In this document: positions 12,064-33,231 of the stretch, piece by piece
Position numbering within the stretch: position 1 is the first letter of the stretch
Layout: each line of letters starts with the position of its first letter
From: a virus
DNA length: 64,000 nucleotides
Reading direction: 5' to 3' (one strand)
IMG/VR virus record: IMGVR_UViG_3300037010_002253
Coordinates: 1-64,000 of that record
The notes under the pieces: generated by a model
Told to the model about the DNA's origin: nothing
What the model saw: only the letters and a program-made list of their open reading frames with translations
The model's database searches: none
Program-made: the position numbers and the translations under genes

Positions 12064-12206
12064 AGCCTCTGCTCCGCGCACAGGGGGAGCATCGAGTCGA
12101 TCTTCACTTCGATCCGCGTGAGGCGCTCCCTTGTCGCCATGGACGACGCGTAGAAAGCCACCGCGAAGAAAATGGGGCTGATCGACGCATAAACCCGCCG
12201 TTTCAT
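12060..12206 (-). CDS. Small membrane protein (48 aa)
   Basis: MKRRVYASISPIFFAVAFYASS...; ATGA and GTGA coupling. Confidence 0.5.
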   Translation of the reverse strand: MKRRVYASISPIFFAVAFYASSMATRERLTRIEVKIDSMLPLCAEQRL

Positions 12207-13009
12207 GTCTTCTGCTCCGTCTCCGCGACAACCGTCGCGGGTTCCTTGTCCTCGTGCTCCGGATGGAGCGTCAACATCTCCTGGGGGTTGAGCTGCGCCG
12301 GGTTGGACCCGAACAACTGGGACAGGATGCCCGGCGCCTTCGGTCCTCCATCCCCCACGACCTGCACGCTCACCCGCTGGGTTTCGCGCTGGAGGGCCAA
12401 CAACTCCTGGAGTTGACCAAGAACGATTTGGCTCTGCCGCGTGACGTTCATGTCGAGCTGCCCGCCCGCCATGATCTCCTCCGAAAAGAAAGCGCGGTTC
12501 ATTCGCGCCGAGTTCTTGAGGACAATCCTGCGCATCGACTCCATCACCGAGTCTACGTCCGTTGGTGGCAACGCCTCGAACGTGTCGATGAACTTGCAGA
12601 TGTGCCCCTCCTTGAACTCGGAACAGTCCGGCCCGATCGAACACGTCGAACACCCAAGGCGCGGGACCTTGTCGAGCTTCTTCTTCTCCGCCGCGATGTC
12701 GACGATCCCCTGCCCGAGGATGGGAAGTGAGTGCCTTCGCTCCAGGGAGACCGTGGTGGAGTTGGCCGGCGGGGAGGTGCTCGGCTCGACGATCTGGATG
12801 GGGGTCGGGGTCGGTTCCGCCGGAAGGGGGTCCGCCGGGACCGCCTTTGCTGCCGCCAGAACGCCACCTAGGCGCATCTTGTACCGCTGGGATAGGGTAG
12901 GGGTACCCTCCGCGCCCAAAACGCCGCCTTGACCCTCTTCCGCGTCTTCCCGGGCCCGCTCGCCCAGGTGGTCGATCTTCGCGCCCTTCCCGGGCTTCAT
13001 CTTCGGCAC
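12203..13009 (-). CDS. Cys-cluster protein (CxxCx5Cx8C) with helical C-terminus
   Basis: CSTCSIGPDCSEFKEGHIC...RAFFSEEIMAGGQLD...GILSQLFG; GTG start with GGAGGA. Confidence 0.7.
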   Translation of the reverse strand: MPKMKPGKGAKIDHLGERAREDAEEGQGGVLGAEGTPTLSQRYKMRLGGVLAAAKAVPADPLPAEPTPTPIQIVEPSTSPPANSTTVSLERRHSLPILGQGIVDIAAEKKKLDKVPRLGCSTCSIGPDCSEFKEGHICKFIDTFEALPPTDVDSVMESMRRIVLKNSARMNRAFFSEEIMAGGQLDMNVTRQSQIVLGQLQELLALQRETQRVSVQVVGDGGPKAPGILSQLFGSNPAQLNPQEMLTLHPEHEDKEPATVVAETEQKT

Positions 13010-13028
13010 TTCGTCCTCCGTCCGGGGG

Positions 13029-13295
13029 TCAACCCCGCAGCAGCTCGTCCATGGTGACGCTCCGCACCGCCGCGTTGGGGTGCAGCCGCCCAGAGATGAC
13101 GTAGAGCGCCTTCGCCGCCGCGAGGTACGCTTCGTGCAGCTCGAAGTCGTCACCGACGATCCTGGTCGACCCGACGAGCGTGCCCCCCACGAGGACGACC
13201 CGACCTTTCGTGGCCTCGGCAGGCTCGATGACCAGGGTCACCGTCCGGGTGGGTGCCTTCCCTTCCATCACCACGCCCCACTTGTTTTCTGCCAT
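13029..13295 (-). CDS. Hypothetical protein
   Basis: 88-aa ORF in the gene chain. Confidence 0.55.
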   Translation of the reverse strand: MAENKWGVVMEGKAPTRTVTLVIEPAEATKGRVVLVGGTLVGSTRIVGDDFELHEAYLAAAKALYVISGRLHPNAAVRSVTMDELLRG

Positions 13296-15144: not shown

Positions 15145-15427
15145 TCGCTGGCTCCTTCGCTTGTCCGCCGACGGCCACTCCGCCCGCGACGTTGTTGATT
15201 ACCTCTGAGATATTACCAAATCCCGCGACGACGTCAAGAGAAGACTTTCGCATCATCGCCTCCAGCGACCCCACATTCCCGTCCAGTGAGATGAAGGCGC
15301 CGTGGATTGCTTCAATCTCGTTCCATAGGTCCGGGTCAGTCGTCCTCAGGTTCTCGAGGCAGGGGTGCACGAGACGGTTCTTCGGAAGTGAGGGGGCGCT
15401 CTTTCGGGGGTTGTGCTCGTTCGACAT
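15059..15427 (-). CDS. Hypothetical protein
   Basis: ATG with GGAG; overlaps both neighbours. Confidence 0.4.
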   Translation of the reverse strand: MSNEHNPRKSAPSLPKNRLVHPCLENLRTTDPDLWNEIEAIHGAFISLDGNVGSLEAMMRKSSLDVVAGFGNISEVINNVAGGVAVGGQAKEPASEERENDRGAAQGPHEGGEGRASDTGRL

Positions 15428-16484
15428 CGTGTTCTCTCCAGGCGTTGATGGTACTGACCCGACCAGGTGTCCCGAAGGAAGCCGAGATGATTCCTTCCGA
15501 CGCCGGCCTCACGAGGGGTTCGGGGACTGGAACCCCAGGCTTGAACCCCTCCGGCCAACCTGTGTGGAGAGTCTGTCCCATCCGCTTCCGCATCTCAACG
15601 AAGCGCGCGGAGAGGTTTCGCCAAGCGATGATGTTCGCTTTCCGCACCTCCGCCACGTCATCGGCTATGACCTTGTCGGGGTCGCAGCCGATCGCCTTGT
15701 AGTACCCCCTGTAGAGCCTGCGCTTCGCCTTTCCGCCGTTGTCCTTCGAGAGCACGAGGAACTTGTTCCCACGGAAGATGTACGTGGTGCCGTACTTCTG
15801 GCCCATGACCCAGGACGTCGAGTCCACGGAGTCCATCGGCACCTCCTTCAACTCGGTGTTGATCCTGGTCATTGCGAACCCGTGGACGGGCTTCCCCCAC
15901 CGCCGCGCCTCCATGAGGAGCCTGCGGTGGATGCCGGAACCGCCCGAACTGCGCCCGATGGCAAGAGTCTTGATTCGCTTATCGCGGCAATAGTGGGTCC
16001 ACCGCTCCAACGTTCGCCAGGAGTGCCACACGGGGGTGATGTTCAGGTCAGGCCACCGCGTCAACATCTCCTCCCGCCAATCGTCGATCAGCTCCATCGT
16101 GCATTCGGGCAGCTCGAACTCGATGTCCAACTCCGTGATCCGGTCGTACGGGGAGCCGAACTCGTCGATGTAGTTGAAGTAGAGCCGCTTGTATTCGTGG
16201 ACAGGCATCAGTCTCTCAGGCTGCGCCCTCGCGAACACTGCGTACGTGAAGGCGCCGGAGTCGAGAAACCAGGAGACGTCAGGGTACGCAGCCTGCATCC
16301 GCGCGATGAAGCGTTCCTTCTTCATCTGGTGGATGTAGTAGAAAGAGTAGAGGATTGATTTCACCCCGTTGTCGAGCAGTGCCTTCGTGAGGGTCTCCAC
16401 CTCGCCACCAGCCAAATAAATCGTGGTCCCCAGTAAACACAGGAAGCCGACACCCACAAAGTCAGAAGCTACGGGTAGCGCCAC
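15336..16484 (-). CDS. dpdA: DpdA-like TGT-family 7-deazaguanine DNA transglycosylase
   Basis: FLDSGAFT, ELD, PVWH, HGFA and DSVDSTSW motifs; same region as folE/queD/queE; probable GTG start at 16484 after GAGGAGG. Confidence 0.8.
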   Translation of the reverse strand: MALPVASDFVGVGFLCLLGTTIYLAGGEVETLTKALLDNGVKSILYSFYYIHQMKKERFIARMQAAYPDVSWFLDSGAFTYAVFARAQPERLMPVHEYKRLYFNYIDEFGSPYDRITELDIEFELPECTMELIDDWREEMLTRWPDLNITPVWHSWRTLERWTHYCRDKRIKTLAIGRSSGGSGIHRRLLMEARRWGKPVHGFAMTRINTELKEVPMDSVDSTSWVMGQKYGTTYIFRGNKFLVLSKDNGGKAKRRLYRGYYKAIGCDPDKVIADDVAEVRKANIIAWRNLSARFVEMRKRMGQTLHTGWPEGFKPGVPVPEPLVRPASEGIISASFGTPGRVSTINAWREHDVERAQPPKERPLTSEEPSRAPLPREPEDD

Positions 16485-17184
16485 GTTCCGTCCTCCTCTT
16501 CCCATTCACAATGAGGCTCACCATCGGCTGGCTCAGTCCTACTGATTTCGCGACGCTAACTTGCGCCTCCCCGTCCGCCACGCGCTTACGGATGGCGTCA
16601 ACAATAACGTCGCTCACCTTCGCGGAGGGGTGGGTCTCTCCTCGCATGTGGCGAAGTCGACCCTTTGCCAGCGCGTCATCCATATTTTCCTTCTGCGTGC
16701 CGGGACGGAGATGCCACGGGTTCACGCATCGGGGTGTGTCGCACTTGTGCAGCAAGTACCCCTCGAAAGGACCAAACACCAGCTCGTACGCGAACCTGTG
16801 TGCGTACACGAAGCGAGTTCGGTCCCTTCCTGAAAGTCCCGTCGGAAGACTGAACTGTCCGTACCCTGCGGATGTTGTGCTCCCTACCCATAGCCAGCAC
16901 GCCTCCGCATCGAGGGTCTGGTCGACCTTCTCCCAGAAGCGTTCCTCCACGTCGCGCCGTGCGTGCTCAAGACATCCGCAGGACTTGGACCGCGTTCGCA
17001 GCCTGTGCCCTGGGAGCACTACCTCTTGACCACAGTCGCAAAGACAACGCCACCACTTCTCTTGGCGTTTGTCTCCCACATGGTCGAACGCGAGAACGGT
17101 GAGCTTGTGGAACCGCTGCCCAACCAAGTCGATCACCCGCATGTCTACTTCCTGCCAGGCATCGTACTTCTCGTCAACGGTCAT
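16462..17184 (-). mobile_element. Free-standing HNH homing endonuclease gene
   Basis: CLCDCG...SCGC N-domain; CWLW...GYG; AHRFAY...LHKCDTPRCVNPWHL...N HNH motif; C-terminal HTH; alternative start 17142. Confidence 0.85.
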
Positions 17185-17202
17185 TTGCAGATCATACCGC
17201 AG

Positions 17203-17249
17203 AAAAGGCAAAGTCCCCACCCCGGGGAGTCAAGCCGGGGTGGGGACTT
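17203..17249 (-). terminator. Terminator after the tRNA-like cluster
   Basis: 15-bp stem aagtccccaccccgg/ccggggtggggactt followed by TGCCTTTT on the minus strand. Confidence 0.7.
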
Positions 17250-17263
17250 CTGTGGACGAACTT

Positions 17264-17341
17264 TGGGAAGCGGGGAGGACTCGAACCTCCGACCGATGCG
17301 TGTCGAGAGACGCTCGCTCTACCGTCTGAGCTACCGCTTCC
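17264..17341 (-). tRNA. tRNA-like RNA with 8-nt anticodon loop (CUCUCGAC); identity undetermined
   Basis: GAAGCGG/CCGCTTC acceptor, GCTC-AGACGGTA-GAGC D arm, GGAGG-TTCGAGT-CCTCC T arm, ends CCA. Confidence 0.75.
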
Positions 17342-17342
17342 A

Positions 17343-17420
17343 GGTGGGCGCCGACCTGGTTGAAACCGACGCCCTTGAGCACACGCCGAAGCGTTTACCA
17401 GTTCTTGCTTCGCCTCCACC
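17343..17420 (-). ncRNA. Degenerate tRNA-sized structured RNA
   Basis: Paired ends GGTG(GA)GGCG/CGCCCACC; D-loop-like AACTGGTAAAC; stem around GTGCTCAAGG; no canonical T arm. Confidence 0.35.
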
Positions 17421-17491
17421 GATCCGCCCGCCAAGGTGAGCCGGCCGCGTGATTGGTAGGGGCTACGCCATAAGAATCACCTCGCTTTCTT

Positions 17492-17566
17492 TGGGCGAGG
17501 GGGGTGGACTTGAACCACCATCCCGGGCGATTCCCTCCCGGTGTCCTGACTTGGACGACCCGTCGC
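17492..17566 (-). tRNA. tRNA-like RNA with 9-nt anticodon loop lacking U33
   Basis: GCGACGGG/CCCCTCGC plus CCA; GTCC/GGAC D stem; CCGGG-AGGGAATCG-CCCGG; GGTGG-TTCAAGT-CCACC. Confidence 0.7.
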
Positions 17567-17570
17567 AGAT

Positions 17571-17595
17571 GGGGAACGGGACCAGCCCGTTCCCC
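17571..17595. other. Perfect 10-bp hairpin between a CDS and the tRNA-like cluster
   Basis: ggggaacggg-accag-cccgttcccc. Confidence 0.6.
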
Positions 17596-17610
17596 GAGTC
17601 GCCGATGCGA

Positions 17611-18678
17611 CTACGACTTCTTGACGACGCGCTTCTTCGGCTCCGCCGACTTCACGCGCATCTCGCTCCACTCGGCCTCACACTCCTCGCCGTCGTCGAG
17701 CGTTACGTCGCACTTGCCCTCGACGTCGTCGATGGTCTGGATCGCGCCGGGCTGCCATCCGCCATCCTCGCCGAAGTTGACCTCGACCTTTGCGCCGAGG
17801 CGGAACCCCTCAGGGACCTCGAGCGTCTTCTTCTGGGGGATCTGGCCCGTCTTCTTCGACTTCGGGTCCTCGGTCGTGACGACCTCGGCGTTCTTGTTGA
17901 GGAAGTCGCGGATGGCGTCGCGCATGATGCGGGCCGACTTGACGATCTTGATCTCGCCCTTGCCGCTCTCGTTGATCGCCGTCGCGATCTCGGTGAGCCG
18001 CTCCACGGTTGCGCTCTCCAGCTCCTCCGAAGAGATGTCGAGGGTCTCCTCGTCCTCCTCCTCCTCCTCGTCGTCCTCGTCCTCTTCCTCGTCCTCCTCC
18101 TCCTCGTCCTTGGACTTGGCAGCCTTCTTCGCAGGAGGCGCCTCATCGGTCTCCTCCGCGCCGTCCGCGTCCGTGAGGTCGAGGAGCGGCTTGATCTCCT
18201 CCGGGACCTCCATCCCGATCTCGGAGGCCAGCGACGCCGCGAACTTCGCGAGGATGATGATGAAGGTGTCGTGTGCCTCGACCGTGTCGTTCAGCTCGAC
18301 GATCTTCTCGTTCGCCGCCGCGAGGGCAGCGACGATCTCAGAGGATACCGCGGAGGACTCTTCGTCGTCGCGCGGCTTCGCGGCGCTCCTCGCTACGCGC
18401 TTCTCCTTCGCGGGGGGCGCCTCCTCCTCCGCGGCCTCCTCCTCCTCCTCCTCGCGCGGCTTCGCTGGGGCCGACGCGACGCCCGTCTCGCTCCGCCGCA
18501 CACCGGCCTTCTTCCCCGCGTTCGGGTCCGCCGGGGTGCCCTTGCCCGCCTTGACCTTCTGCGCCCTCTCGATCTCGCGCACGAGGTTGTTGAGGTCCAG
18601 GCCGCTCGGGTTGATGCCGAGCGACTTCGCGAAAACACGGAGATCCTTGAAGCCCATCTTGGAGAGGTCGGTTGCCAT
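17611..18678 (-). CDS. Highly acidic multi-domain protein with C-terminal Tudor/SH3-like barrel
   Basis: Poly-E/D tracts; FRLGAKVEVNFGEDGGWQPGAIQTID...CDVTLDDGEE. Confidence 0.8.
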   Translation of the reverse strand: MATDLSKMGFKDLRVFAKSLGINPSGLDLNNLVREIERAQKVKAGKGTPADPNAGKKAGVRRSETGVASAPAKPREEEEEEAAEEEAPPAKEKRVARSAAKPRDDEESSAVSSEIVAALAAANEKIVELNDTVEAHDTFIIILAKFAASLASEIGMEVPEEIKPLLDLTDADGAEETDEAPPAKKAAKSKDEEEEDEEEDEDDEEEEEDEETLDISSEELESATVERLTEIATAINESGKGEIKIVKSARIMRDAIRDFLNKNAEVVTTEDPKSKKTGQIPQKKTLEVPEGFRLGAKVEVNFGEDGGWQPGAIQTIDDVEGKCDVTLDDGEECEAEWSEMRVKSAEPKKRVVKKS

Positions 18679-20149: not shown

Positions 20150-20408
20150 TGTATAGCGTCCTCTTGATCTGGTTTGCTTGTCTGGTGGAAATCGAGAGCT
20201 TGTACTTGATCGCTCCTGGGATGTTGCACACCTTACACTCTCGGTATCGAGCGAGGGCGCACACCTCGCGGGACTTCTGGTGTTCGTACGCCCAGCACCA
20301 CAAGTACAGGGGCAGGCGGAACTCCTTCGCCTTTACCTCTTCGACCATGTCGCCTCCGTCGTCCGTAAGTGACTCCAAGATATTACCCCGGGACGGACCG
20401 ACAATCAA
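19956..20408 (-). CDS. Hypothetical protein; 3' part overlaps the next gene
   Basis: Coupled to the folE stop; Cys-containing N-terminal half. Confidence 0.4.
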   Translation of the reverse strand: MIVGPSRGNILESLTDDGGDMVEEVKAKEFRLPLYLWCWAYEHQKSREVCALARYRECKVCNIPGAIKYKLSISTRQANQIKRTLYNVRLDTERARDSAGGGGSGRGSARPARQDRRTGRSSAGRGSRGRGEPEPAYDLVVRDDDDQLDD

Positions 20409-21097
20409 GAGGTTTTCTTTACCCTCGCGAGGTGCTGGTTGAACTCAGACTTCACGTCGGGCCGTGTCGCGACGCCTCGGAGGGCGGCCGTGGAAGTGAT
20501 GGAACCCGCTTTCTGCACGCCGCGCATGATCATGCAGTAGTGGGACGCCTCCATCACCACAAAGACCCCCGCCGGATCCACGAGGTCAACGAAGAAGTCA
20601 GCGACCTCTAGCGTCAGCCGCTCCTGAGTCTGGAGCTTGTGTGAGAAGAAGTCGACGATCCGCGGGATCTTCGACAGCCCGACGATCCGCTTCCTGGGGA
20701 TGTACCCGACGTGTGCCACGCCGACGAAGGGGAGCATGTGGTGGGCGCAGAGAGACGCGAAGGGCACGTCCGCCACCATCACGATCTCGTTGTACCCGTC
20801 GGCGTCGAAGGTGGTCAGCTTCGCAAGGAACTCCGCTCGCTTATCGTCGCGGTACGACGAGAGCAGCTCGTCGTAGTACATACGAGCCACCCGCATCGGG
20901 GTGTTGGCGAGGTCGAGGTGAGCGGACTCTAGGATGGGAAGCCCATCGAGGACCTTCTCCAACGACTCTGATAGCCGGTTCAGTGTCTCGTCGCGGTCGT
21001 CGGAACCTGCATCTCGCGTCGAAGGCTGCTTCGCGCGTCGCCGAGTAGCTCGCATGTCGTCCCAGTCTCCTGGATACCCGCCGTGTGGATGTCGCAC
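20405..21097 (-). CDS. folE: GTP cyclohydrolase I
   Basis: TPMRVA; SLCAHHMLPF; GLSKIPR; QERLT; HYCMIMRG. Confidence 0.95.
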   Translation of the reverse strand: MRHPHGGYPGDWDDMRATRRRAKQPSTRDAGSDDRDETLNRLSESLEKVLDGLPILESAHLDLANTPMRVARMYYDELLSSYRDDKRAEFLAKLTTFDADGYNEIVMVADVPFASLCAHHMLPFVGVAHVGYIPRKRIVGLSKIPRIVDFFSHKLQTQERLTLEVADFFVDLVDPAGVFVVMEASHYCMIMRGVQKAGSITSTAALRGVATRPDVKSEFNQHLARVKKTS

Positions 21098-21210
21098 TCC
21101 GACCCATCGGCGTCGTCACGCTCGACGACGATGACGAGACGATGGCCCGTCAGGGTCTCAACCCTTCCCGTCCGCTCGTCCGTCACCATCACCGAGAACA
21201 TGGCGTTCAC
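20980..21210 (-). CDS. Small hypothetical protein
   Basis: GTGA-coupled to queE; overlaps the folE start. Confidence 0.35.
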   Translation of the reverse strand: MNAMFSVMVTDERTGRVETLTGHRLVIVVERDDADGSECDIHTAGIQETGTTCELLGDARSSLRREMQVPTTATRH

Positions 21211-21908
21211 CTCAAGGAGTAAAGGAGCTTGTGTGCTTGGGGGAGTACACGCACATCTGGTGCACTTGTCAACCCAACCCGCCGCAGGCTGACGAAGTAT
21301 TCGGTGACTTCTAGAAGAAACTCCCGCCCCTTGCTGTACTCGGGCTGCACGACGAAGTGAGGGGGGTTTCCTGCGCTACCCCACAAATCCTTCACGTCCT
21401 TGAACAGCTCGTTCGCATCGTGAACTTCCTCCCGAGTCGAGACGACGATCTTGATCTGCGTCTCCCGCTTCCGTCCGTGGTCCCGCTGGGTCACGAGAAA
21501 GCGGTACAGGTCCGCCACCATCCGCGGATGGTGCAGCTTCGGGGAGATGGAGAGGAGGTCCGCCGCGAAGCAAAGCTCCTGGTGGAAGAGGCTCCCCTGG
21601 GTTTCGACGGTGACGTGTCGCCCGGTGAGCCCGAGCCGGTACGCCAGCGTCGTGCACTCCTCGGCCTGTAGGAACGGGTTCCCTCCTGTGATGACGACGT
21701 GACGGATCCCGTAGGACTTCACGTCCTGCACGACTTCATCGACCGTCCTCTCGGCGCCGGCCTTCGCGTCCCACGACCCCTTGGTGTCGCACCAGGAGCA
21801 AGTGAACTCGCACCCTTGCAGGCGCACGAAGACGCTGGGCATCCCGACCAGGACGCCCTCGCCCTGGACCGTGGGCCAGCAGTACCCCTCGAAATCTACG
21901 ACGCGCAT
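21207..21908 (-). CDS. queE: 7-carboxy-7-deazaguanine synthase (radical SAM)
   Basis: TVQGEG...FVRLQGCEFTCSWCDT; ITGGNP; ISPK; PQAHK; start overlaps the queD stop. Confidence 0.93.
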   Translation of the reverse strand: MRVVDFEGYCWPTVQGEGVLVGMPSVFVRLQGCEFTCSWCDTKGSWDAKAGAERTVDEVVQDVKSYGIRHVVITGGNPFLQAEECTTLAYRLGLTGRHVTVETQGSLFHQELCFAADLLSISPKLHHPRMVADLYRFLVTQRDHGRKRETQIKIVVSTREEVHDANELFKDVKDLWGSAGNPPHFVVQPEYSKGREFLLEVTEYFVSLRRVGLTSAPDVRVLPQAHKLLYSLR

Positions 21909-22309
21909 CAGGCCAGCTCCTTCGTGGGAAGGACGATCTGCGCCCACGAGGTCTCCGTCTCGAAGACGGTGACGGATTCAAGGCCCACCTCCGCGTCCGC
22001 ATCCATCGCCAGGAGAAGGCCGCAGACCTTGTCCACGATCCACGCCGCGATGTTCTCGGCGCTGGGGTTCTTCGCCTTGAACTCCGGCAGGTCGTTCAGG
22101 GTCTTGTGGTCGAGGGCGTTCCGCACGGCCTTGAGCACGTTGAAATCGAGGAGGAACCCGGTCTCGTCGAGCTTCTCCCCGTACAGGACGATCTCCGCCT
22201 TGTAGCTGTGCCCATGTAGGTTTCCGCAGGGGTGGTCGTTGGGCAGGCCCTTGAGGACGTGGGCGGCTTCCCACCTGATCGTCTTCCCGATTCTGTAGAG
22301 AGCGTTCAC
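21908..22309 (-). CDS. queD: 6-carboxytetrahydropterin synthase
   Basis: EAAH...CGNLHGHSY; LDHKTLN; PSAENIA; VFET. Confidence 0.95.
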   Translation of the reverse strand: MNALYRIGKTIRWEAAHVLKGLPNDHPCGNLHGHSYKAEIVLYGEKLDETGFLLDFNVLKAVRNALDHKTLNDLPEFKAKNPSAENIAAWIVDKVCGLLLAMDADAEVGLESVTVFETETSWAQIVLPTKELA

Positions 22310-30357: not shown

Positions 30358-33231
30358 CTACTGCTTCGCCTTACCCCAGGACTCCCCGAACCCGATCTCC
30401 GCTGGCGTGTCGACGCGGAGGTCCTTGAAGCCGTACACGCGGTACGGGTGGCTGACGTACTCCTCGATGATCGGCCGGCACTCCTCCTCCGCGCCCTTCG
30501 GGACGTTGAACAGCAGCTCGTCGTGAATCTGAAGGGTCATCTCGACGCCCAGCTCCTCAAGTCGCTTGTCCGCGTCGATGAGCAGCATCGACATCTTCAA
30601 TAGGTCGGCTGCACTTCCCTGGATGACGTAGTTGAACGCCTGCCGCTCCGCCCGCCTGCGCAATCCCATCTCGTCGGAGTTGATGAAGGGGATGGCCACC
30701 CGACGCCGGAGGATGGTCCTCACGAACCCGTCCTGGCGAGCTCTGCGCTGGATCCGGTCGATGCCCGACCTCATCCCCGCGTAGAGGTTGAAGAAGCCCT
30801 GCACCGCTTCCTTCCCTGCCTGCTCGCTGACGCCCGCCATCTGCGCGTACGTGCTCGGACCCATCCCGTACAGGGTGTTCCCGACGACGCGACCCTCAAC
30901 CGTGAAGCGATGCCGAGGACCTGCGTTCACGATGTCGTAGACCCGGGCGACCTGTTTCGGTTGTTGATAGAATAAGTGGTCAGCCTCAGATTCTGCGGCG
31001 AGTAGTGTCCATCGTTGTCGATCCGATCGAACACCAAGCCTTTGAAGGTAGAGTCCGACCACTTCTTCAACGCCCAGCGTACGAAGTGCTCCCTCGACCG
31101 AAACAAGACCTTGATGCCCCTCCCCTTGTACCGGGGGGACGAGACATGCGTGTCCCTCTCGCACCTCTGTACCATCGCGGCGTACCGACGACCGAGCATC
31201 GCCGCCCGGGAATCGTGGTACTTCTGCCCGCGCTGGCATCGGCAGTTCGTAGTTTTCCTCGCGCGAACGTTGTCCACTAGAAGCCAATGCTTCTTTTCGC
31301 ACGCGGAGCACTCCGCCTCTACGTACCTTCTCGCCCTCGACCCCGGCCTCGCGCGCCGCTCGACCTCGCCGGTCAAACGCATCGTACCCAACGGCAGCTT
31401 CCCCAGCTCCGCCAACAGCAAGTCGTCCGAAACGAACCGTGGATGCTGCGAGCCCGAACGGAATCTTGTGTCCTTCATCGGTGTAGACCTCGTGGCCGAG
31501 AGTTGCGGTGAGACCATCGTAAGTGAGGACGGCCTTTTCACCCTTGAACACCACCCCCTCATGGTGGACCCACTCTACCCCGTCCCATAGAAGATCGGAA
31601 TCCTGAACTCGCTCGATTGGGACGAGGCCACGCTTCGTGAGAACCCGCTGGCCCTCCGCGATGCAGCCGAAGTTGATCGTCTTGCTGCGCCGTCGCGCCT
31701 CGGGGAACTTCGCCTTGACCTCGTGCAGCAGGTCCCCGTCCACAGTCCGCGCTCCGACCCAGCGACGGACCTCCGAATCGATCTCGGTCGCCGTCAGGGA
31801 GTGCAAGTCCCACCCCCGGTTGATGGCGTTCAGCATCACCGCGTCGTTCGTGAAATGCGCCGCAAGACGCAACTCGATCTGGCTCAGGTCGATGTCCCCG
31901 ACCACGCATCCATCGGGCGCGATGAACGCCTCGCGAATGTGGAAGGCGTCGTTCTCCATGGACGGGATGTTCTGGAGGTTGTGCGCGGAGGACGACAAGC
32001 GAAGGGTCGCAGTTCCCGTCTGCTTGAGGTTGGTGTGGACCTTCCCGCCGTACTCACCGGCCGAGTGGATGAACGGCTCCACGTACGTTCCGCGCAACTT
32101 GTCCAGCTCGCGGTACGCCAGGATGATGTCCGCGATCTGCTTCGCCACTGGGTCCTTGAAGCTGGTCAGGGAATCGTCATCTGTCGACGGGAGGCCCGTG
32201 GGGGTTCGCTTCGCGATGGGCGTTCGGAGGTGGACCTCGAAGAGGTTCGCTACCTGCTTGGACGACCCGAGGTTGAAGTCGGCGAGCACGTCATTAGAGA
32301 CGCCGTACTTCTGGCAGGTGCGGAGGAACTCACTGACCGTATCCTCGATCTTCGCGTCGACCTGAAGCTTCATCTCCTCGAGCCGCACCGTGTCCACCCG
32401 ACACCCGCGCCGCTCCATGCGGTAGAGGACCTGGGTGTAAGGTAGGTCGAACTGCTTGTAGTAGTCCCAGTAGGATTTGCCGTTGACCCACTCCTCCGCC
32501 TCCAGGGCGGCCCTAAGGACCTCGAACCCCATCAGGGAGAAGAGCGGGTCTTTGCAGGCGTACGTGATGAGACGGTGGACGCCCACAGGGTCCTGCACCA
32601 CCTCGTCGAGGTGGGGGACCTCAAACGTCTTGCTAGGTGTCCCGTCTCGCTTGAGCTTCGGCCGCTTGAACGTCTCGCTGTACTCGCGGATGGCACCCCA
32701 CGTCTCGCCGAAGAGGGTGATGAGCTTGTACCCGAAGTACCTCTCCATGATGTGTTTCAGGCCGTGGTACATCTCGCCGCTCGCGGACAGCGTGTCCATG
32801 ACCTGCGTGTCCCCCGCGAACCCATCGAGCGTGATCCCGTGGTTCCCGCAGACGTGCATGTCGTACTTGAGGTTCGACCCGACCTTGCCGATGTCGGGGT
32901 CCTCCAAGACGCCCTTGAAGTGGCGCAGGGTCCCTTCCCACGGCCCCCAGTTCGGGACGAAGATCCGCGAGCCAGGAGCGCCTGGGTCGTACCCGCACGA
33001 GAACTGTGCGCAGATCGCGCGCGCCTTTCCTTTCGCGTGCTCCTTCCTCGGGTCGCATCCGACCGTCTCGGTATCGAAGCCGACGACTTCCGCGTCCCGG
33101 ATCATCCGAAGGGCTTGCCCAACCTTCTCCGGGGTATCAGTGATGAACGCCCCATCGACCTCGGGCAGCGTCGGTCCGCTGTAGTCGCGCCGCTTCTTGC
33201 GGCCGAGGTTCAAGTGCCACTGGTTTCCCAC
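30358..33231 (-). CDS. polA: Family A DNA polymerase (3'-5' exonuclease plus polymerase) containing an intein
   Basis: FDTET; RLSSSAHNLQNIP; DLSQIELR; KTINFG|TLYG; IQGSAAD; QIHDEL. Confidence 0.95.
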   Translation of the reverse strand: MGNQWHLNLGRKKRRDYSGPTLPEVDGAFITDTPEKVGQALRMIRDAEVVGFDTETVGCDPRKEHAKGKARAICAQFSCGYDPGAPGSRIFVPNWGPWEGTLRHFKGVLEDPDIGKVGSNLKYDMHVCGNHGITLDGFAGDTQVMDTLSASGEMYHGLKHIMERYFGYKLITLFGETWGAIREYSETFKRPKLKRDGTPSKTFEVPHLDEVVQDPVGVHRLITYACKDPLFSLMGFEVLRAALEAEEWVNGKSYWDYYKQFDLPYTQVLYRMERRGCRVDTVRLEEMKLQVDAKIEDTVSEFLRTCQKYGVSNDVLADFNLGSSKQVANLFEVHLRTPIAKRTPTGLPSTDDDSLTSFKDPVAKQIADIILAYRELDKLRGTYVEPFIHSAGEYGGKVHTNLKQTGTATLRLSSSAHNLQNIPSMENDAFHIREAFIAPDGCVVGDIDLSQIELRLAAHFTNDAVMLNAINRGWDLHSLTATEIDSEVRRWVGARTVDGDLLHEVKAKFPEARRRSKTINFGCIAEGQRVLTKRGLVPIERVQDSDLLWDGVEWVHHEGVVFKGEKAVLTYDGLTATLGHEVYTDEGHKIPFGLAASTVRFGRLAVGGAGEAAVGYDAFDRRGRAAREAGVEGEKVRRGGVLRVRKEALASSGQRSREENYELPMPARAEVPRFPGGDARSSVRRDGTEVREGHACLVPPVQGEGHQGLVSVEGALRTLGVEEVVGLYLQRLGVRSDRQRWTLLAAESEADHLFYQQPKQVARVYDIVNAGPRHRFTVEGRVVGNTLYGMGPSTYAQMAGVSEQAGKEAVQGFFNLYAGMRSGIDRIQRRARQDGFVRTILRRRVAIPFINSDEMGLRRRAERQAFNYVIQGSAADLLKMSMLLIDADKRLEELGVEMTLQIHDELLFNVPKGAEEECRPIIEEYVSHPYRVYGFKDLRVDTPAEIGFGESWGKAKQ
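30877..31665 (-). mobile_element. Intein (263 aa) inserted in PolA motif B
   Basis: Starts CIAEGQRVLT; block B TATLGH; block F VYDIVNAGPRHRF; ends VVGN with +1 Thr; removal restores KTINFG-TLYGMG. Confidence 0.92.
30927..31478 (-). CDS. HNH-type homing endonuclease nested in the +1 frame of the intein
   Basis: CSAC...NCRC; YAAMVQRC...RYKGRGIKV...FDRIDNDGHYSPQNLRLTT...NNRN; ATG 31478 with GAGGT upstream. Confidence 0.85.
   Translation of the reverse strand: MKDTRFRSGSQHPRFVSDDLLLAELGKLPLGTMRLTGEVERRARPGSRARRYVEAECSACEKKHWLLVDNVRARKTTNCRCQRGQKYHDSRAAMLGRRYAAMVQRCERDTHVSSPRYKGRGIKVLFRSREHFVRWALKKWSDSTFKGLVFDRIDNDGHYSPQNLRLTTYSINNRNRSPGSTTS

What the first reader, a model, noticed from the sequence alone, without database searches (positions are those of the whole stretch)
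17264..17595. Head-to-tail tRNA-like RNAs that all have enlarged, non-canonical anticodon loops
Seen: two cloverleafs with good acceptor, D and T arms but loops of 8 nt (CUCUCGAC) and 9 nt (AGGGAAUCG, no U33). Both can form an extra G-1:C73 pair as in tRNA-His. A third degenerate 78-nt unit lies between them, and the cluster is bracketed by a hairpin and a terminator. Intact stems with altered loops suggest selection for shape and not for decoding. Known: 8-nt loops cause +1 frameshift suppression, and several defence nucleases target anticodon loops. Inference: tRNA mimics or decoys, or a frameshifting tRNA.
Basis: partly seen in the sequence, partly recalled or inferred. Interest (0 to 1): 0.7.

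Follow-up and report, generated by a model that had tools for sequence, protein, structure and literature searches.

The report
Phage tRNA pair with oversized anticodon loops
An uncultivated phage carries, as its only tRNA-type genes, two neighbouring tRNA-shaped RNAs with histidine-type ends but 8- and 9-base anticodon loops, so one might read four-base codons and the other cannot read codons at all; what they do is untested.

Summary
Partly confirmed. On the minus strand lie two real tRNA-derived units.

- Unit 1 (17341..17266) is the only tRNA of this 81-kb phage. It scores 48.3 bits on Rfam tRNA. All acceptor, D and T pairs are Watson-Crick. The anticodon loop has 8 nt, CU-CUCG-AC, which ARAGORN reads as the 4-base anticodon CUCG.
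- Unit 2 (17566..17492) is weaker. It has a 9-nt loop without U33, a short D-loop without GG, one C-C mismatch and an encoded CCA. ARAGORN calls it only at a relaxed threshold, but its position beside unit 1 is far beyond chance.
- Both units carry G-1:C73. In my control set 5 of 5 tRNA-His had this and 0 of 133 other tRNAs had C73.
- Both share flank motifs. An upstream hairpin and a downstream terminator bracket the cluster.
- The claimed third unit is not supported.

No relative of either unit was found. The related phage records searched hold nothing like it, whole or at the syntenic site, so conservation cannot be judged. No gene needs a +1 shift at CGAG, and in-frame CGAG is not avoided. 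That argues against an efficient frameshifter.

My odds: structure-selected live RNAs with unit 1 an expanded-loop decoder 0.4, decaying remnants 0.3, non-decoding mimics 0.2.

The scan has noted tRNA-shaped non-decoding RNAs before on other DNA.

The parts
17266..17341 (-). Unit 1. A tRNA with an 8-nt anticodon loop CUCUCGAC (loop at 17307..17300), G-1 at 17341 and C73 at 17266. It is followed by CAAAG, so CCA is not fully encoded.
   Evidence: ARAGORN; Rfam tRNA 48.3 bits; only tRNA in the genome; cloverleaf -30.3 against an MFE of -31.6 kcal/mol.
17492..17566 (-). Unit 2. A tRNA-like cloverleaf with a 9-nt loop AGGGAAUCG (17536..17528), G-1 at 17566, C73 at 17495 and an encoded CCA at 17494..17492. 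It has a C-C mismatch in the acceptor and a D-loop without GG.
   Evidence: Sequence; ARAGORN at -ps95/-ps90; false-positive rate 0.55 per genome; its MFE structure is the cloverleaf; weak tRNA-clan matches only.
17571..17595 (-). Perfect 10-bp hairpin just after the stop codon of the upstream gene and 4 nt before the CCCAUCUG leader of unit 2. It has no U tail.
   Evidence: I8.
17600..17623 (-). 24-nt leader motif, copy A. It overlaps the last codons and the stop of the upstream gene.
   Evidence: (D2).
17384..17407 (-). 24-nt leader motif, copy B, with 18 of 24 bases identical to copy A. It is followed by an 11-12-bp hairpin (about 17345-17375) and by CCCACCUG directly before unit 1.
   Evidence: (local score 23; 6 of 500 shuffles reach it).
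17205..17250 (-). Intrinsic terminator: a 15-bp perfect stem followed by a U-rich tail, downstream of unit 1.
   Evidence: z -5.2; I1.
16462..17184 (-). HNH homing-endonuclease gene immediately downstream. It is context only; no link to the tRNAs was shown.
   Evidence: PHROGs; Pfam HNH_3. None of its 43 viral homologue loci has a tRNA nearby.
17611..18678 (-). Upstream gene for a 355-aa acidic protein of unknown family. The tRNA units probably lie on its transcript.
   Evidence: no sigma-70-like promoter in 16900-18000.

Best explanation
The cluster is a lineage-specific pair of tRNA-derived genes kept for their tRNA fold. It lies at the 3' end of the transcript of the upstream gene and ends at a strong terminator. 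No promoter of its own was found, so co-transcription with the upstream gene is an inference.

Inferred processing: each unit is cut out like a tRNA, with RNase P at the 5' side and 3' trimming or CCA addition at the other. The G-1:C73 pair would shift RNase P cleavage by one base, as in tRNA-His, leaving an 8-bp acceptor stem.

Inferred role of unit 1: it still has everything a ribosome-active tRNA needs except a 7-nt loop. Its loop C32-U33-CUCG-A37-C38 presents either a 4-base anticodon to CGAG, or the triplet UCG with a pyrimidine inserted after U33. The second layout is that of yeast mitochondrial tRNA-Thr1, which reads triplets in frame. I expect it to read CGA mostly in frame, with at most a low level of +1 shifting at CGA-G. 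The amino acid it carries, His (from G-1:C73) or Arg (from C35/G36), is unresolved.

Inferred role of unit 2: with a 9-nt loop, no U33 and no GG in the D-loop it cannot decode. It is a co-processed tRNA-shaped RNA whose role is unknown.

Shown: the sequences, the folds, the uniqueness, the flank motifs, and the absence of frameshift targets.

Inferred: expression, processing, charging, and any action on the ribosome.
For: - Unit 1 is a high-scoring tRNA (48.3 bits) with 16 of 16 Watson-Crick pairs in the acceptor, D and T stems.
- Its loop has exactly the U33 ... purine-37 frame around four bases.
- Unit 2 keeps 20 of 21 stem pairs, a canonical T-loop and an encoded CCA, despite several length changes. 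Its MFE structure is the cloverleaf.
- Several indels with almost no broken pairs is not what neutral decay gives. This step is an inference from the usual excess of substitutions over indels.
- Both units share the rare G-1:C73 signature. In the control tRNAs from 80 genome loci, 0 of 133 non-His tRNAs had C73 and 5 of 5 tRNA-His had G-1 plus C73.
- Both units share a 24-nt leader motif, CCCAYCUG directly 5' of the tRNA, and CCAAAG 3' of it. These are found nowhere else in the window.
- A strong terminator follows the cluster.
- Assembly error is unlikely. Open reading frames cover about 86% of the genome, and frames of 957, 1023 and 861 aa are intact.
- The CGA share of Arg codons is higher here (162 of 1550) than in the closest long relative G001 (88 of 1242), although that relative has lower G+C. 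This is weak evidence.
- A natural 8-nt-loop tRNA that reads triplets in frame exists, and it arose from tRNA-His (PMC4267643, passages read).
Against: - This is a singleton. No relative of either unit was found in viral contigs, metagenome contigs or genome contigs. The pattern searches were exact, so diverged copies could be missed.
- Related phages lack it. Whole-record tRNA searches found nothing in 6 longer records (G001, G006-G010) and nothing in 4 of 5 short fragments. The fifth fragment, G014, has one canonical tRNA elsewhere.
- The syntenic stretches of G001, G008 and G009 hold no tRNA-like fold, even at ARAGORN -ps90.
- Purifying selection therefore cannot be shown.
- Unit 1 has an A-A mismatch or bulge in the anticodon stem and a 6-nt variable region.
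- Its body is closest to Asn, Lys, Val and Met tRNAs, not to His or Arg. Its amino-acid identity is therefore contradictory.
- No gene pair or extension requires a +1 shift at CGAG.
- No aminoacyl-tRNA synthetase or tRNA-repair enzyme appeared among the 81 phage proteins scanned against PHROGs (60, 21). Some short frames were not scanned.
- No promoter was found.
Confidence: 0.4

Rival explanations
1. Decaying remnants. A small foreign tRNA array was picked up at a variable spot of the genome and is being lost. Unit 1 was inactivated recently by indels in its anticodon arm. Unit 2 is further gone. Neither has a function.
For: - The cluster is absent from every related phage record examined, so it is young or transient.
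- The site is variable: relative L001 has four small ORFs there instead.
- Unit 2 fails Rfam tRNA and lacks U33 and the D-loop GG.
- Unit 1 has two length changes in one arm, which could be a single mutational event.
- In-frame CGAG is not avoided, and there are no frameshift targets.
- A strong SD-AUG-GCG-UAG stub at 17483..17463 could be the remains of a deleted gene.
Against: - Between them the two units keep 40 of 42 stem pairs plus G-1:C73, despite several indels. Both cloverleaves are near-optimal folds.
- The shared flank motifs are retained.
- Unit 2 differs from a canonical tRNA by too many length changes to be young, yet its stems are intact.
Confidence: 0.3
2. Non-decoding tRNA mimics. 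Both units work through their shape and their His-type acceptor end, not on the ribosome. They could be ligands, competitors or decoys for a tRNA-binding protein such as HisRS, the CCA-adding enzyme, a tRNA-end-modifying toxin or another tRNA-targeting defence. They would then resemble the stable tRNA-like RNAs of T4 and T5.
For: - One explanation covers both units.
- The acceptor/T-arm half, G-1:C73 and the flank motifs are shared, while the anticodon loops differ freely at 8 and 9 nt.
- Unit 2 cannot decode.
- Phage tRNA operons are known to hold tRNA-framed RNAs of unknown function. T4 RNA C/D and T5 RNA1 are recalled from my own knowledge and also named in earlier notes of this scan.
Against: - No defence or counter-defence gene was recognised nearby. 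I did not scan the PADLOC library.
- The loops resemble no canonical anticodon loop, so they would not bait an anticodon nuclease.
- Unit 1's loop keeps U33 and A37, as a decoder would.
- There is no conservation data.
Confidence: 0.2
3. An efficient, programmed quadruplet decoder. Unit 1 reads CGAG as one codon in order to make a specific +1-frame phage product.
For: - ARAGORN reports a 4-base anticodon CUCG in a canonical 8-nt frame.
- Two in-frame CGAG sites in the DNA-polymerase intein (31368, 31362) would shift ribosomes into the frame of the overlapping HNH-like ORF 31562..30927.
Against: - That ORF has its own ATG. A shift at the upstream CGAG (31611) meets a stop after 10 codons.
- The only +1 gene pair with a CGAG in its overlap (73412) was rejected. 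The upstream frame stays coding to its own stop, and the downstream gene has its own ATG.
- There are 59 in-frame CGAG sites spread over many genes, including the polymerase and the portal. An efficient shifter would damage these.
Confidence: 0.05
4. Assembly or sequencing indels created the oversized loops in what are really ordinary tRNAs.
For: The record is a metagenome assembly, and I could not see its reads.
Against: - At least four length differences from a canonical tRNA fall within 300 nt, none in a homopolymer run.
- Protein genes across 81 kb are not broken.
- Restoring 7-nt loops would still not give unit 2 a U33 or a recognisable anticodon frame.
Confidence: 0.03

Closest known systems
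Laboratory-isolated +1 frameshift suppressor tRNAs with an extra base in the anticodon loop, such as SufB2, the tRNA-Gly CCCC type and SufJ (PMC7803779 / 10.1101/2020.12.31.424971 and PMC4238358: abstracts seen in the listing; PMC9094753: passages read)
   Same: Unit 1 has an 8-nt anticodon loop on an otherwise normal tRNA body. U33 and a purine frame four bases.
   Different: Those tRNAs are mutants of known isoacceptors, selected to rescue a frameshift mutation. Here the gene is wild-type in a phage. Its isotype is undefined, no target site was found, and frameshifting is untested.
Yeast mitochondrial tRNA-Thr1, a natural tRNA with an 8-nt loop (PMC4267643, passages read)
   Same: It is a natural tRNA with an 8-nt loop caused by a pyrimidine inserted after U33. 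It derives from tRNA-His and reads triplets in frame. Unit 1 can be written the same way (C after U33, then UCG) and carries a His-type acceptor end.
   Different: tRNA-Thr1 has a dedicated synthetase and a reassigned codon family. No synthetase was found among the 81 phage proteins scanned. The body of unit 1 is not His-like by sequence.
tRNA-His
   Same: G-1 paired with C73 occurs in both units. In the control set this signature was exclusive to tRNA-His.
   Different: Neither unit has a GUG anticodon. Unit 1 lacks a full encoded CCA. The bodies of both units resemble other isotypes as much as or more than His.
Non-decoding tRNA-like stable RNAs in phage tRNA operons: T4 RNA C/D and T5 RNA1
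   Same: They are tRNA-framed RNAs beside phage tRNA genes, with acceptor and T parts kept and the anticodon region unusable. Their function is unknown. Unit 2 fits this description.
   Different: There is no sequence similarity to any record of the phage collection. Those RNAs are much longer (119-157 nt), whereas unit 2 has normal tRNA length.
Natural tRNAs with non-standard anticodon-loop size listed in the review PMC5009743 (passage read), including 'tRNAs in a phage'
   Same: They are wild-type tRNAs with enlarged loops, one set being phage-borne. None is known to mediate frameshifting.
   Different: I could not see which phage is meant, because the reference list lies beyond the text held. 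My guess of mycobacteriophage D29 was not borne out: its 5 tRNAs are canonical by ARAGORN.

Membership tests
Canonical elongator tRNA (Rfam RF00005) | Score above the Rfam gathering cut-off of 29 bits | tested here: met
   Unit 1 scores 48.3 bits. Unit 2 does NOT meet it: it has no RF00005 row at E<=10, and its best clan matches are 20.2 bits (tRNA-Sec) and 12.6 bits.
Canonical elongator tRNA (Rfam RF00005) | 7-nt anticodon loop with U33 and a purine at position 37 | tested here: not met
   Unit 1 has an 8-nt loop, CUCUCGAC. Unit 2 has a 9-nt loop, AGGGAAUCG, without U33.
Canonical elongator tRNA (Rfam RF00005) | Conserved tertiary nucleotides: U8, A14, G18-G19 and the T-loop UUCRANY | tested here: met
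   Unit 1 has all of them (alignment). Unit 2 has U8 and the T-loop, but its D-loop AAGUCA lacks GG.
+1 frameshift suppressor / quadruplet-decoding tRNA | Extra base next to the anticodon, giving an 8-nt loop | tested here: met
   Unit 1 only.
+1 frameshift suppressor / quadruplet-decoding tRNA | A gene whose product requires a +1 shift at the cognate four-base codon | tested here: not met
   I scanned all 856 minus-strand CGAG sites and all overlapping +1 frame pairs. The only candidate (73412) was rejected.
+1 frameshift suppressor / quadruplet-decoding tRNA | Measured +1 frameshifting | not testable with these tools
   This needs a reporter assay or proteomics.
tRNA-His | G-1 paired with C73 | tested here: met
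   Both units have it. Controls: 5 of 5 tRNA-His have it, and 0 of 133 other tRNAs have C73.
tRNA-His | GUG anticodon | tested here: not met
   Neither loop contains it in an anticodon position.
tRNA-His | Charging by HisRS | not testable with these tools
   This needs an aminoacylation assay.
In-frame 8-nt-loop decoder of the yeast mitochondrial tRNA-Thr1 type | Pyrimidine inserted after U33, followed by a triplet anticodon and a purine at 37 | tested here: met
   Unit 1 can be read as C-U-[C]-UCG-A-C. The requirement for a pyrimidine at 33a comes from PMC4267643.
In-frame 8-nt-loop decoder of the yeast mitochondrial tRNA-Thr1 type | A dedicated or adapted synthetase | tested here: not met
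   No synthetase-like hit appeared among the 81 phage proteins scanned against PHROGs. Host enzymes were not examined.
Phage non-decoding tRNA-like stable RNAs (T4 RNA C/D, T5 RNA1) | Sequence or model similarity to the described members | tested here: not met
   blastn of 17150-17650 against 50,697 phage records found no match. No Rfam family was hit.
Anticodon-nuclease decoy tRNA | An anticodon stem-loop that imitates the nuclease's natural target | tested here: inconclusive
   The loops resemble no canonical anticodon loop. However, the host and its nucleases are unknown.

The most novel reading that the evidence does not exclude
Unit 1 is a natural, phage-borne four-base-anticodon tRNA that is charged with histidine through its G-1:C73 end. 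It would insert His with a +1 shift at CGA-G, or His at CGA in frame. That would give the phage a way to reprogram translation. It could make trans-frame products such as a polymerase-intein/HNH fusion from the CGAG pair at 31368/31362, or it could corrupt host proteins. Unit 2 would be a companion RNA that occupies HisRS or a host tRNA-directed defence.
Probability: 0.08. Interest if true: 0.85.

Novelty: new variant of a known kind. Interest (0 to 1): 0.45.

Why it matters
Wild-type tRNAs with enlarged anticodon loops are very rare. According to the review passage I read (PMC5009743), none is known to mediate frameshifting.

Here a phage's only tRNA has a clean 4-base anticodon frame and an acceptor end that normally specifies histidine. 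That makes it a ready natural test case for three questions:
- whether 8-nt loops shift the reading frame or read triplets in a bacterial system;
- which synthetase wins when the acceptor and anticodon signals disagree;
- whether phages keep tRNA-shaped RNAs for purposes other than decoding.

If it proves to be a relic, it is an ordinary case of tRNA gain and loss in phages.

Tried and rejected
- **Arg origin of unit 1.** I guessed this from a recalled T-arm resemblance. It was rejected. Of 79 genomic tRNAs sharing its D-arm end, variable loop and T arm, 43 were Lys, 24 Asn, 9 Val, 3 Met and 0 Arg. The best BLAST matches in 5 bacterial genomes were Asn, Asn, Val, Asn, Lys, Met, Thr and Trp.
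- **Searches for relatives of the units.** Three viral contigs patterns, one metagenome pattern, one exact genome contigs pattern and blastn against the phage collection gave no relatives. One search returned 6 unrelated tRNAs.
- **TGT protein against metagenome contigs.** It gave 68 pattern matches, none confirmed by tblastn.
- **A link between the HNH gene and tRNAs.** None of 43 viral loci with an HNH homologue has a tRNA within 2.5 kb.
- **Other records reached through the HNH search.** G002-G005, of 83-88 kb, are not relatives of this phage. The capsid protein matched only G001 strongly and G005 weakly.
- **Frameshift site at 73412.** Rejected.
- **A shift at polymerase CGAG 31611 into the intein HNH frame.** Rejected, because a stop follows after 10 codons.
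- **The 24-nt leader motif as a genome-wide promoter.** Rejected, because it occurs only at the two units in the window.
- **The SD-AUG stub as a copy of the upstream gene's start.** No resemblance.
- **A third ARAGORN -ps95 hit at 21103-21178.** It has a poor cloverleaf and no T-loop, and I treat it as noise.
- **Mukai et al. 2017 (PMC5389517).** I recalled it as describing 8/9-nt loops. A term search of its text found no mention of anticodon loops or frameshifting.
- **Mycobacteriophage D29 as the 'phage with odd tRNAs'.** Not borne out.
- **Literature searches for phage tRNAs with 8-nt loops**. They found no description of a phage tRNA like this one. The searched library lacks most subscription journals.
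Full report
**Setting**

The window is the first 64 kb of an 81,362-bp virus record with direct terminal repeats, rated complete. It has about 63% G+C, and nearly all genes are on the minus strand.

PHROGs and Pfam scans show a contractile-tailed phage. They find sheath, tube, baseplate, portal, terminase and major head proteins. The phage has its own DNA polymerase, primase and helicases. It also has a 7-deazaguanine pathway: GTP cyclohydrolase I, QueD, QueE, QueC-like proteins and two TGT/DpdA-like proteins.

No cultured phage is close. The best sheath match is 29% identity, and there is no DNA match.

**What is at 17264-17595**

Everything lies on the minus strand. In transcript order the region reads as follows:
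- the stop codon of a 355-aa acidic protein gene (18678..17611);
- a perfect 10-bp hairpin (17595..17571);
- the leader CCCAUCUG;
- unit 2 (17565..17492, including CCA);
- a spacer of about 150 nt;
- the leader CCCACCUG;
- unit 1 (17340..17266);
- a 15-bp perfect hairpin with a U-rich tail (17250..17205);
- an HNH endonuclease gene whose likely ATG is at 17184.

**Unit 1**

ARAGORN at default settings calls a tRNA with the 4-base anticodon CUCG. Rfam tRNA scores 48.3 bits against a cut-off of 29. It is the only RF00005 match in the whole genome.

- All 16 pairs of the acceptor, D and T stems are Watson-Crick, and the usual tertiary nucleotides are present.
- The anticodon arm has 19 nt instead of 17.
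- It consists of four pairs plus an A-A mismatch (or a bulged A) and an 8-nt loop C-U-C-U-C-G-A-C.
- The cloverleaf costs -30.3 kcal/mol against an MFE of -31.6.

**Unit 2**

Default ARAGORN and Rfam tRNA do not call it. ARAGORN at 95% and 90% thresholds forces a 7-nt 'Phe gaa' reading through an A-G pair. Rfam gives only a 20.2-bit tRNA-Sec-type match, or a 12.6-bit T-arm/acceptor match when the stretch is scanned alone.

Read directly from the sequence:
- 20 of 21 stem pairs are intact, with one C-C mismatch in the acceptor.
- The T-loop is canonical, and C73-CCA is encoded.
- The D-loop has 6 nt without GG, and the variable region has 3 nt.
- The loop is the 9-nt AGGGAAUCG, without U33.

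Its MFE structure is the cloverleaf.

Simulated genomes give 0.55 ARAGORN -ps95 hits per 81 kb. A hit 150 nt from the only true tRNA, on the same strand, is therefore not chance.

**The third unit**

No tRNA-clan match at E<=10 falls between the two units. ARAGORN finds something there only at the 70% threshold. At such thresholds it reports hundreds of hits genome-wide: 146 at ps80 and 354 at ps75, compared with 107-135 at ps80 in simulated sequence. I do not accept it. That interval holds the leader elements of unit 1.

**Two features that tie the units together**

*1. Both have G at -1 opposite C73.* As a control I used the 139 tRNAs that ARAGORN finds in 80 loci from bacterial and archaeal genomes. 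One was dropped for a poor acceptor fit.
- 0 of 133 non-His tRNAs have C73.
- 5 of 5 tRNA-His have G-1 plus C73.

*2. The flanks match.*
- A 24-nt motif upstream has 18 identical bases. The local alignment score is 23, against a shuffle mean of 15.6 and sd of 2.5, and 6 of 500 shuffles reach it.
- A strong hairpin follows the motif in each unit.
- CCCAYCUG lies directly 5' of each tRNA, and CCAAAG lies 3' of it.
- These patterns occur nowhere else in the window. They were derived from these two sites, so that count is descriptive only.

The tRNA bodies themselves are only about half identical. Nine stem pairs are changed on both sides between the units, by my count. That is what any two tRNAs show, so it is evidence of selection only if the units are true duplicates.

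**Isotype**

My first guess, an Arg-like body, came from memory and was wrong.
- tRNAs in genomes that share unit 1's D-arm end, variable loop and T arm are Lys, Asn, Val and Met.
- The best matches in five bacterial genomes are mostly Asn.
- tRNA-His is not especially close.

The signals therefore conflict. The acceptor end says His. The loop offers C35/G36 if read as UCG (Arg box), or CUC (Glu) if read straight after U33. The body is generic.

**Relatives**

- The capsid protein finds 16 related viral contigs at 65-91% identity, and the TGT protein finds one.
- Whole-record tRNA searches found nothing in G001 and G006-G010. They also found nothing in 4 of 5 short fragments. The fifth, G014, has one canonical tRNA beside its capsid gene.
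- The DNA of 17190-17625 has only chance-level matches in G001 and G007-G010.
- The stretches downstream of the homologous acidic-protein gene in G001, G008 and G009 hold no tRNA-like fold, even at relaxed thresholds.
- In L001 four small ORFs occupy the site.

The cluster is thus private to this phage among the records held.

**Is unit 1 a frameshifter?**

Among 23,395 codons of 92 called genes, CGA occurs 173 times. In 59 cases it is followed by G. That share is like the share for other CGN codons, so in-frame CGAG is not avoided.

I scanned all 856 minus-strand CGAG sites, and all frame pairs whose open frames overlap, for a coding +1 continuation.
- The single +1 pair with a CGAG in its overlap (73412) fails. 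The upstream frame stays coding to its own stop and ends in a membrane-like helix, and the downstream gene has its own ATG.
I confirmed that ORF (31562..30927).
- It has its own ATG. A shift at CGAG 31611 runs into a stop after 10 codons.
- Shifts at 31368 or 31362 would enter its frame part-way. This remains an idea only.

An efficient quadruplet decoder is therefore unlikely. A weak one, or an in-frame reader, is not excluded.

One weak hint comes from codon use. CGA makes up 10.5% of Arg codons here, against 7.1% in G001, which has lower G+C. In G007 (57% G+C) it is 17%, and hosts may differ.

**Literature**

- A review passage states that almost all tRNAs have standard loop sizes. It names a yeast mitochondrial tRNA, 'tRNAs in a phage' and a sponge mitochondrial tRNA as exceptions. 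It says that the yeast tRNA and 'the other two' are not known to mediate frameshifting (PMC5009743, passage read). The reference list is beyond the text held.
- The yeast case, tRNA-Thr1, has an 8-nt loop with U inserted after U33. It derives from tRNA-His and reads CUN triplets as Thr (PMC4267643, passages read).
- All 20 E. coli isoacceptor classes can be turned into quadruplet decoders, mostly of low efficiency. ArgRS often charges foreign scaffolds that carry suitable anticodons (PMC9094753, passages read).
- I found no paper describing a phage tRNA like this one. The library lacks most subscription journals.

**Reading**

- Several length changes with almost no broken base pairs, a shared rare acceptor signature and retained flank motifs favour RNAs kept for their tRNA shape (0.6 in all).
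- Within that, I give 0.4 to unit 1 still acting on the ribosome as an expanded-loop tRNA, with unit 2 as a non-decoding sibling.
- I give 0.2 to both being non-decoding mimics.
- Decay of a recently acquired mini-array gets 0.3. The cluster is a singleton at a variable site, and unit 2 fails tRNA models.
- An efficient programmed frameshifter gets 0.05, and assembly error gets 0.03.

Nothing here shows expression, processing, charging or function.

Noticed in passing
window 20405-22309, 15336-16505 and 12203-13153; L128 12826-14670 (genome 76826-78670): The phage has a full 7-deazaguanine pathway: GTP cyclohydrolase I, QueD, QueE, QueC-like and Gat-QueC-like proteins. It also has two TGT/DpdA-like proteins. 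One matches the N-terminal part of PHROG 887 (positions 10-278 of 509) and the other matches the C-terminal part (351-482). The tRNA units lie 1.1 kb upstream of the first TGT-like gene. No link between them was shown.
   Followed up: partly
window 17463-17483 (minus strand): Between the two units lies a strong Shine-Dalgarno match (GAGGUGAU), followed by AUG GCG UAG. It is either a two-codon mini-ORF or the stub of a deleted gene. It sits inside a weak hairpin (17449-17480).
   Followed up: partly
window 31362-31371 and 30927-31562: Two in-frame CGAG quadruplets lie 6 nt apart in the DNA-polymerase intein region. A +1 shift there would enter the overlapping HNH-like ORF, which has its own ATG at 31562.
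   Followed up: partly
window 21103-21178 (minus strand): This is the third ARAGORN hit at the 95% threshold, called 'Asp atc'. It lies in the 109-nt gap between the GTP cyclohydrolase and QueE genes. The cloverleaf is poor and has no T-loop motif, so it is probably noise or a plain hairpin.
   Followed up: partly
L004 289-366 (a 371-kb viral contig): An unrelated jumbo-phage tRNA that ARAGORN also reads with a 4-base anticodon (ttag). It has A73 and no G-1. It is another natural 8-nt-loop call in a phage.
   Followed up: partly
L188 (G014 12671-12742): A more distant relative (capsid 65% identical) has one canonical tRNA (69.5 bits) beside its capsid gene. tRNA content therefore varies within this phage group.
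   Followed up: no
window 73344-73802 in genome coordinates (L128 9344-9802): A 152-aa protein between the portal and terminase genes ends in a membrane-like helix. It overlaps the open frame of the next gene by 194 nt.
   Followed up: partly
G007 (a 92,966-bp record): A related record is classed as a provirus by its source. Its flanks might name the host of this phage group.
   Followed up: no
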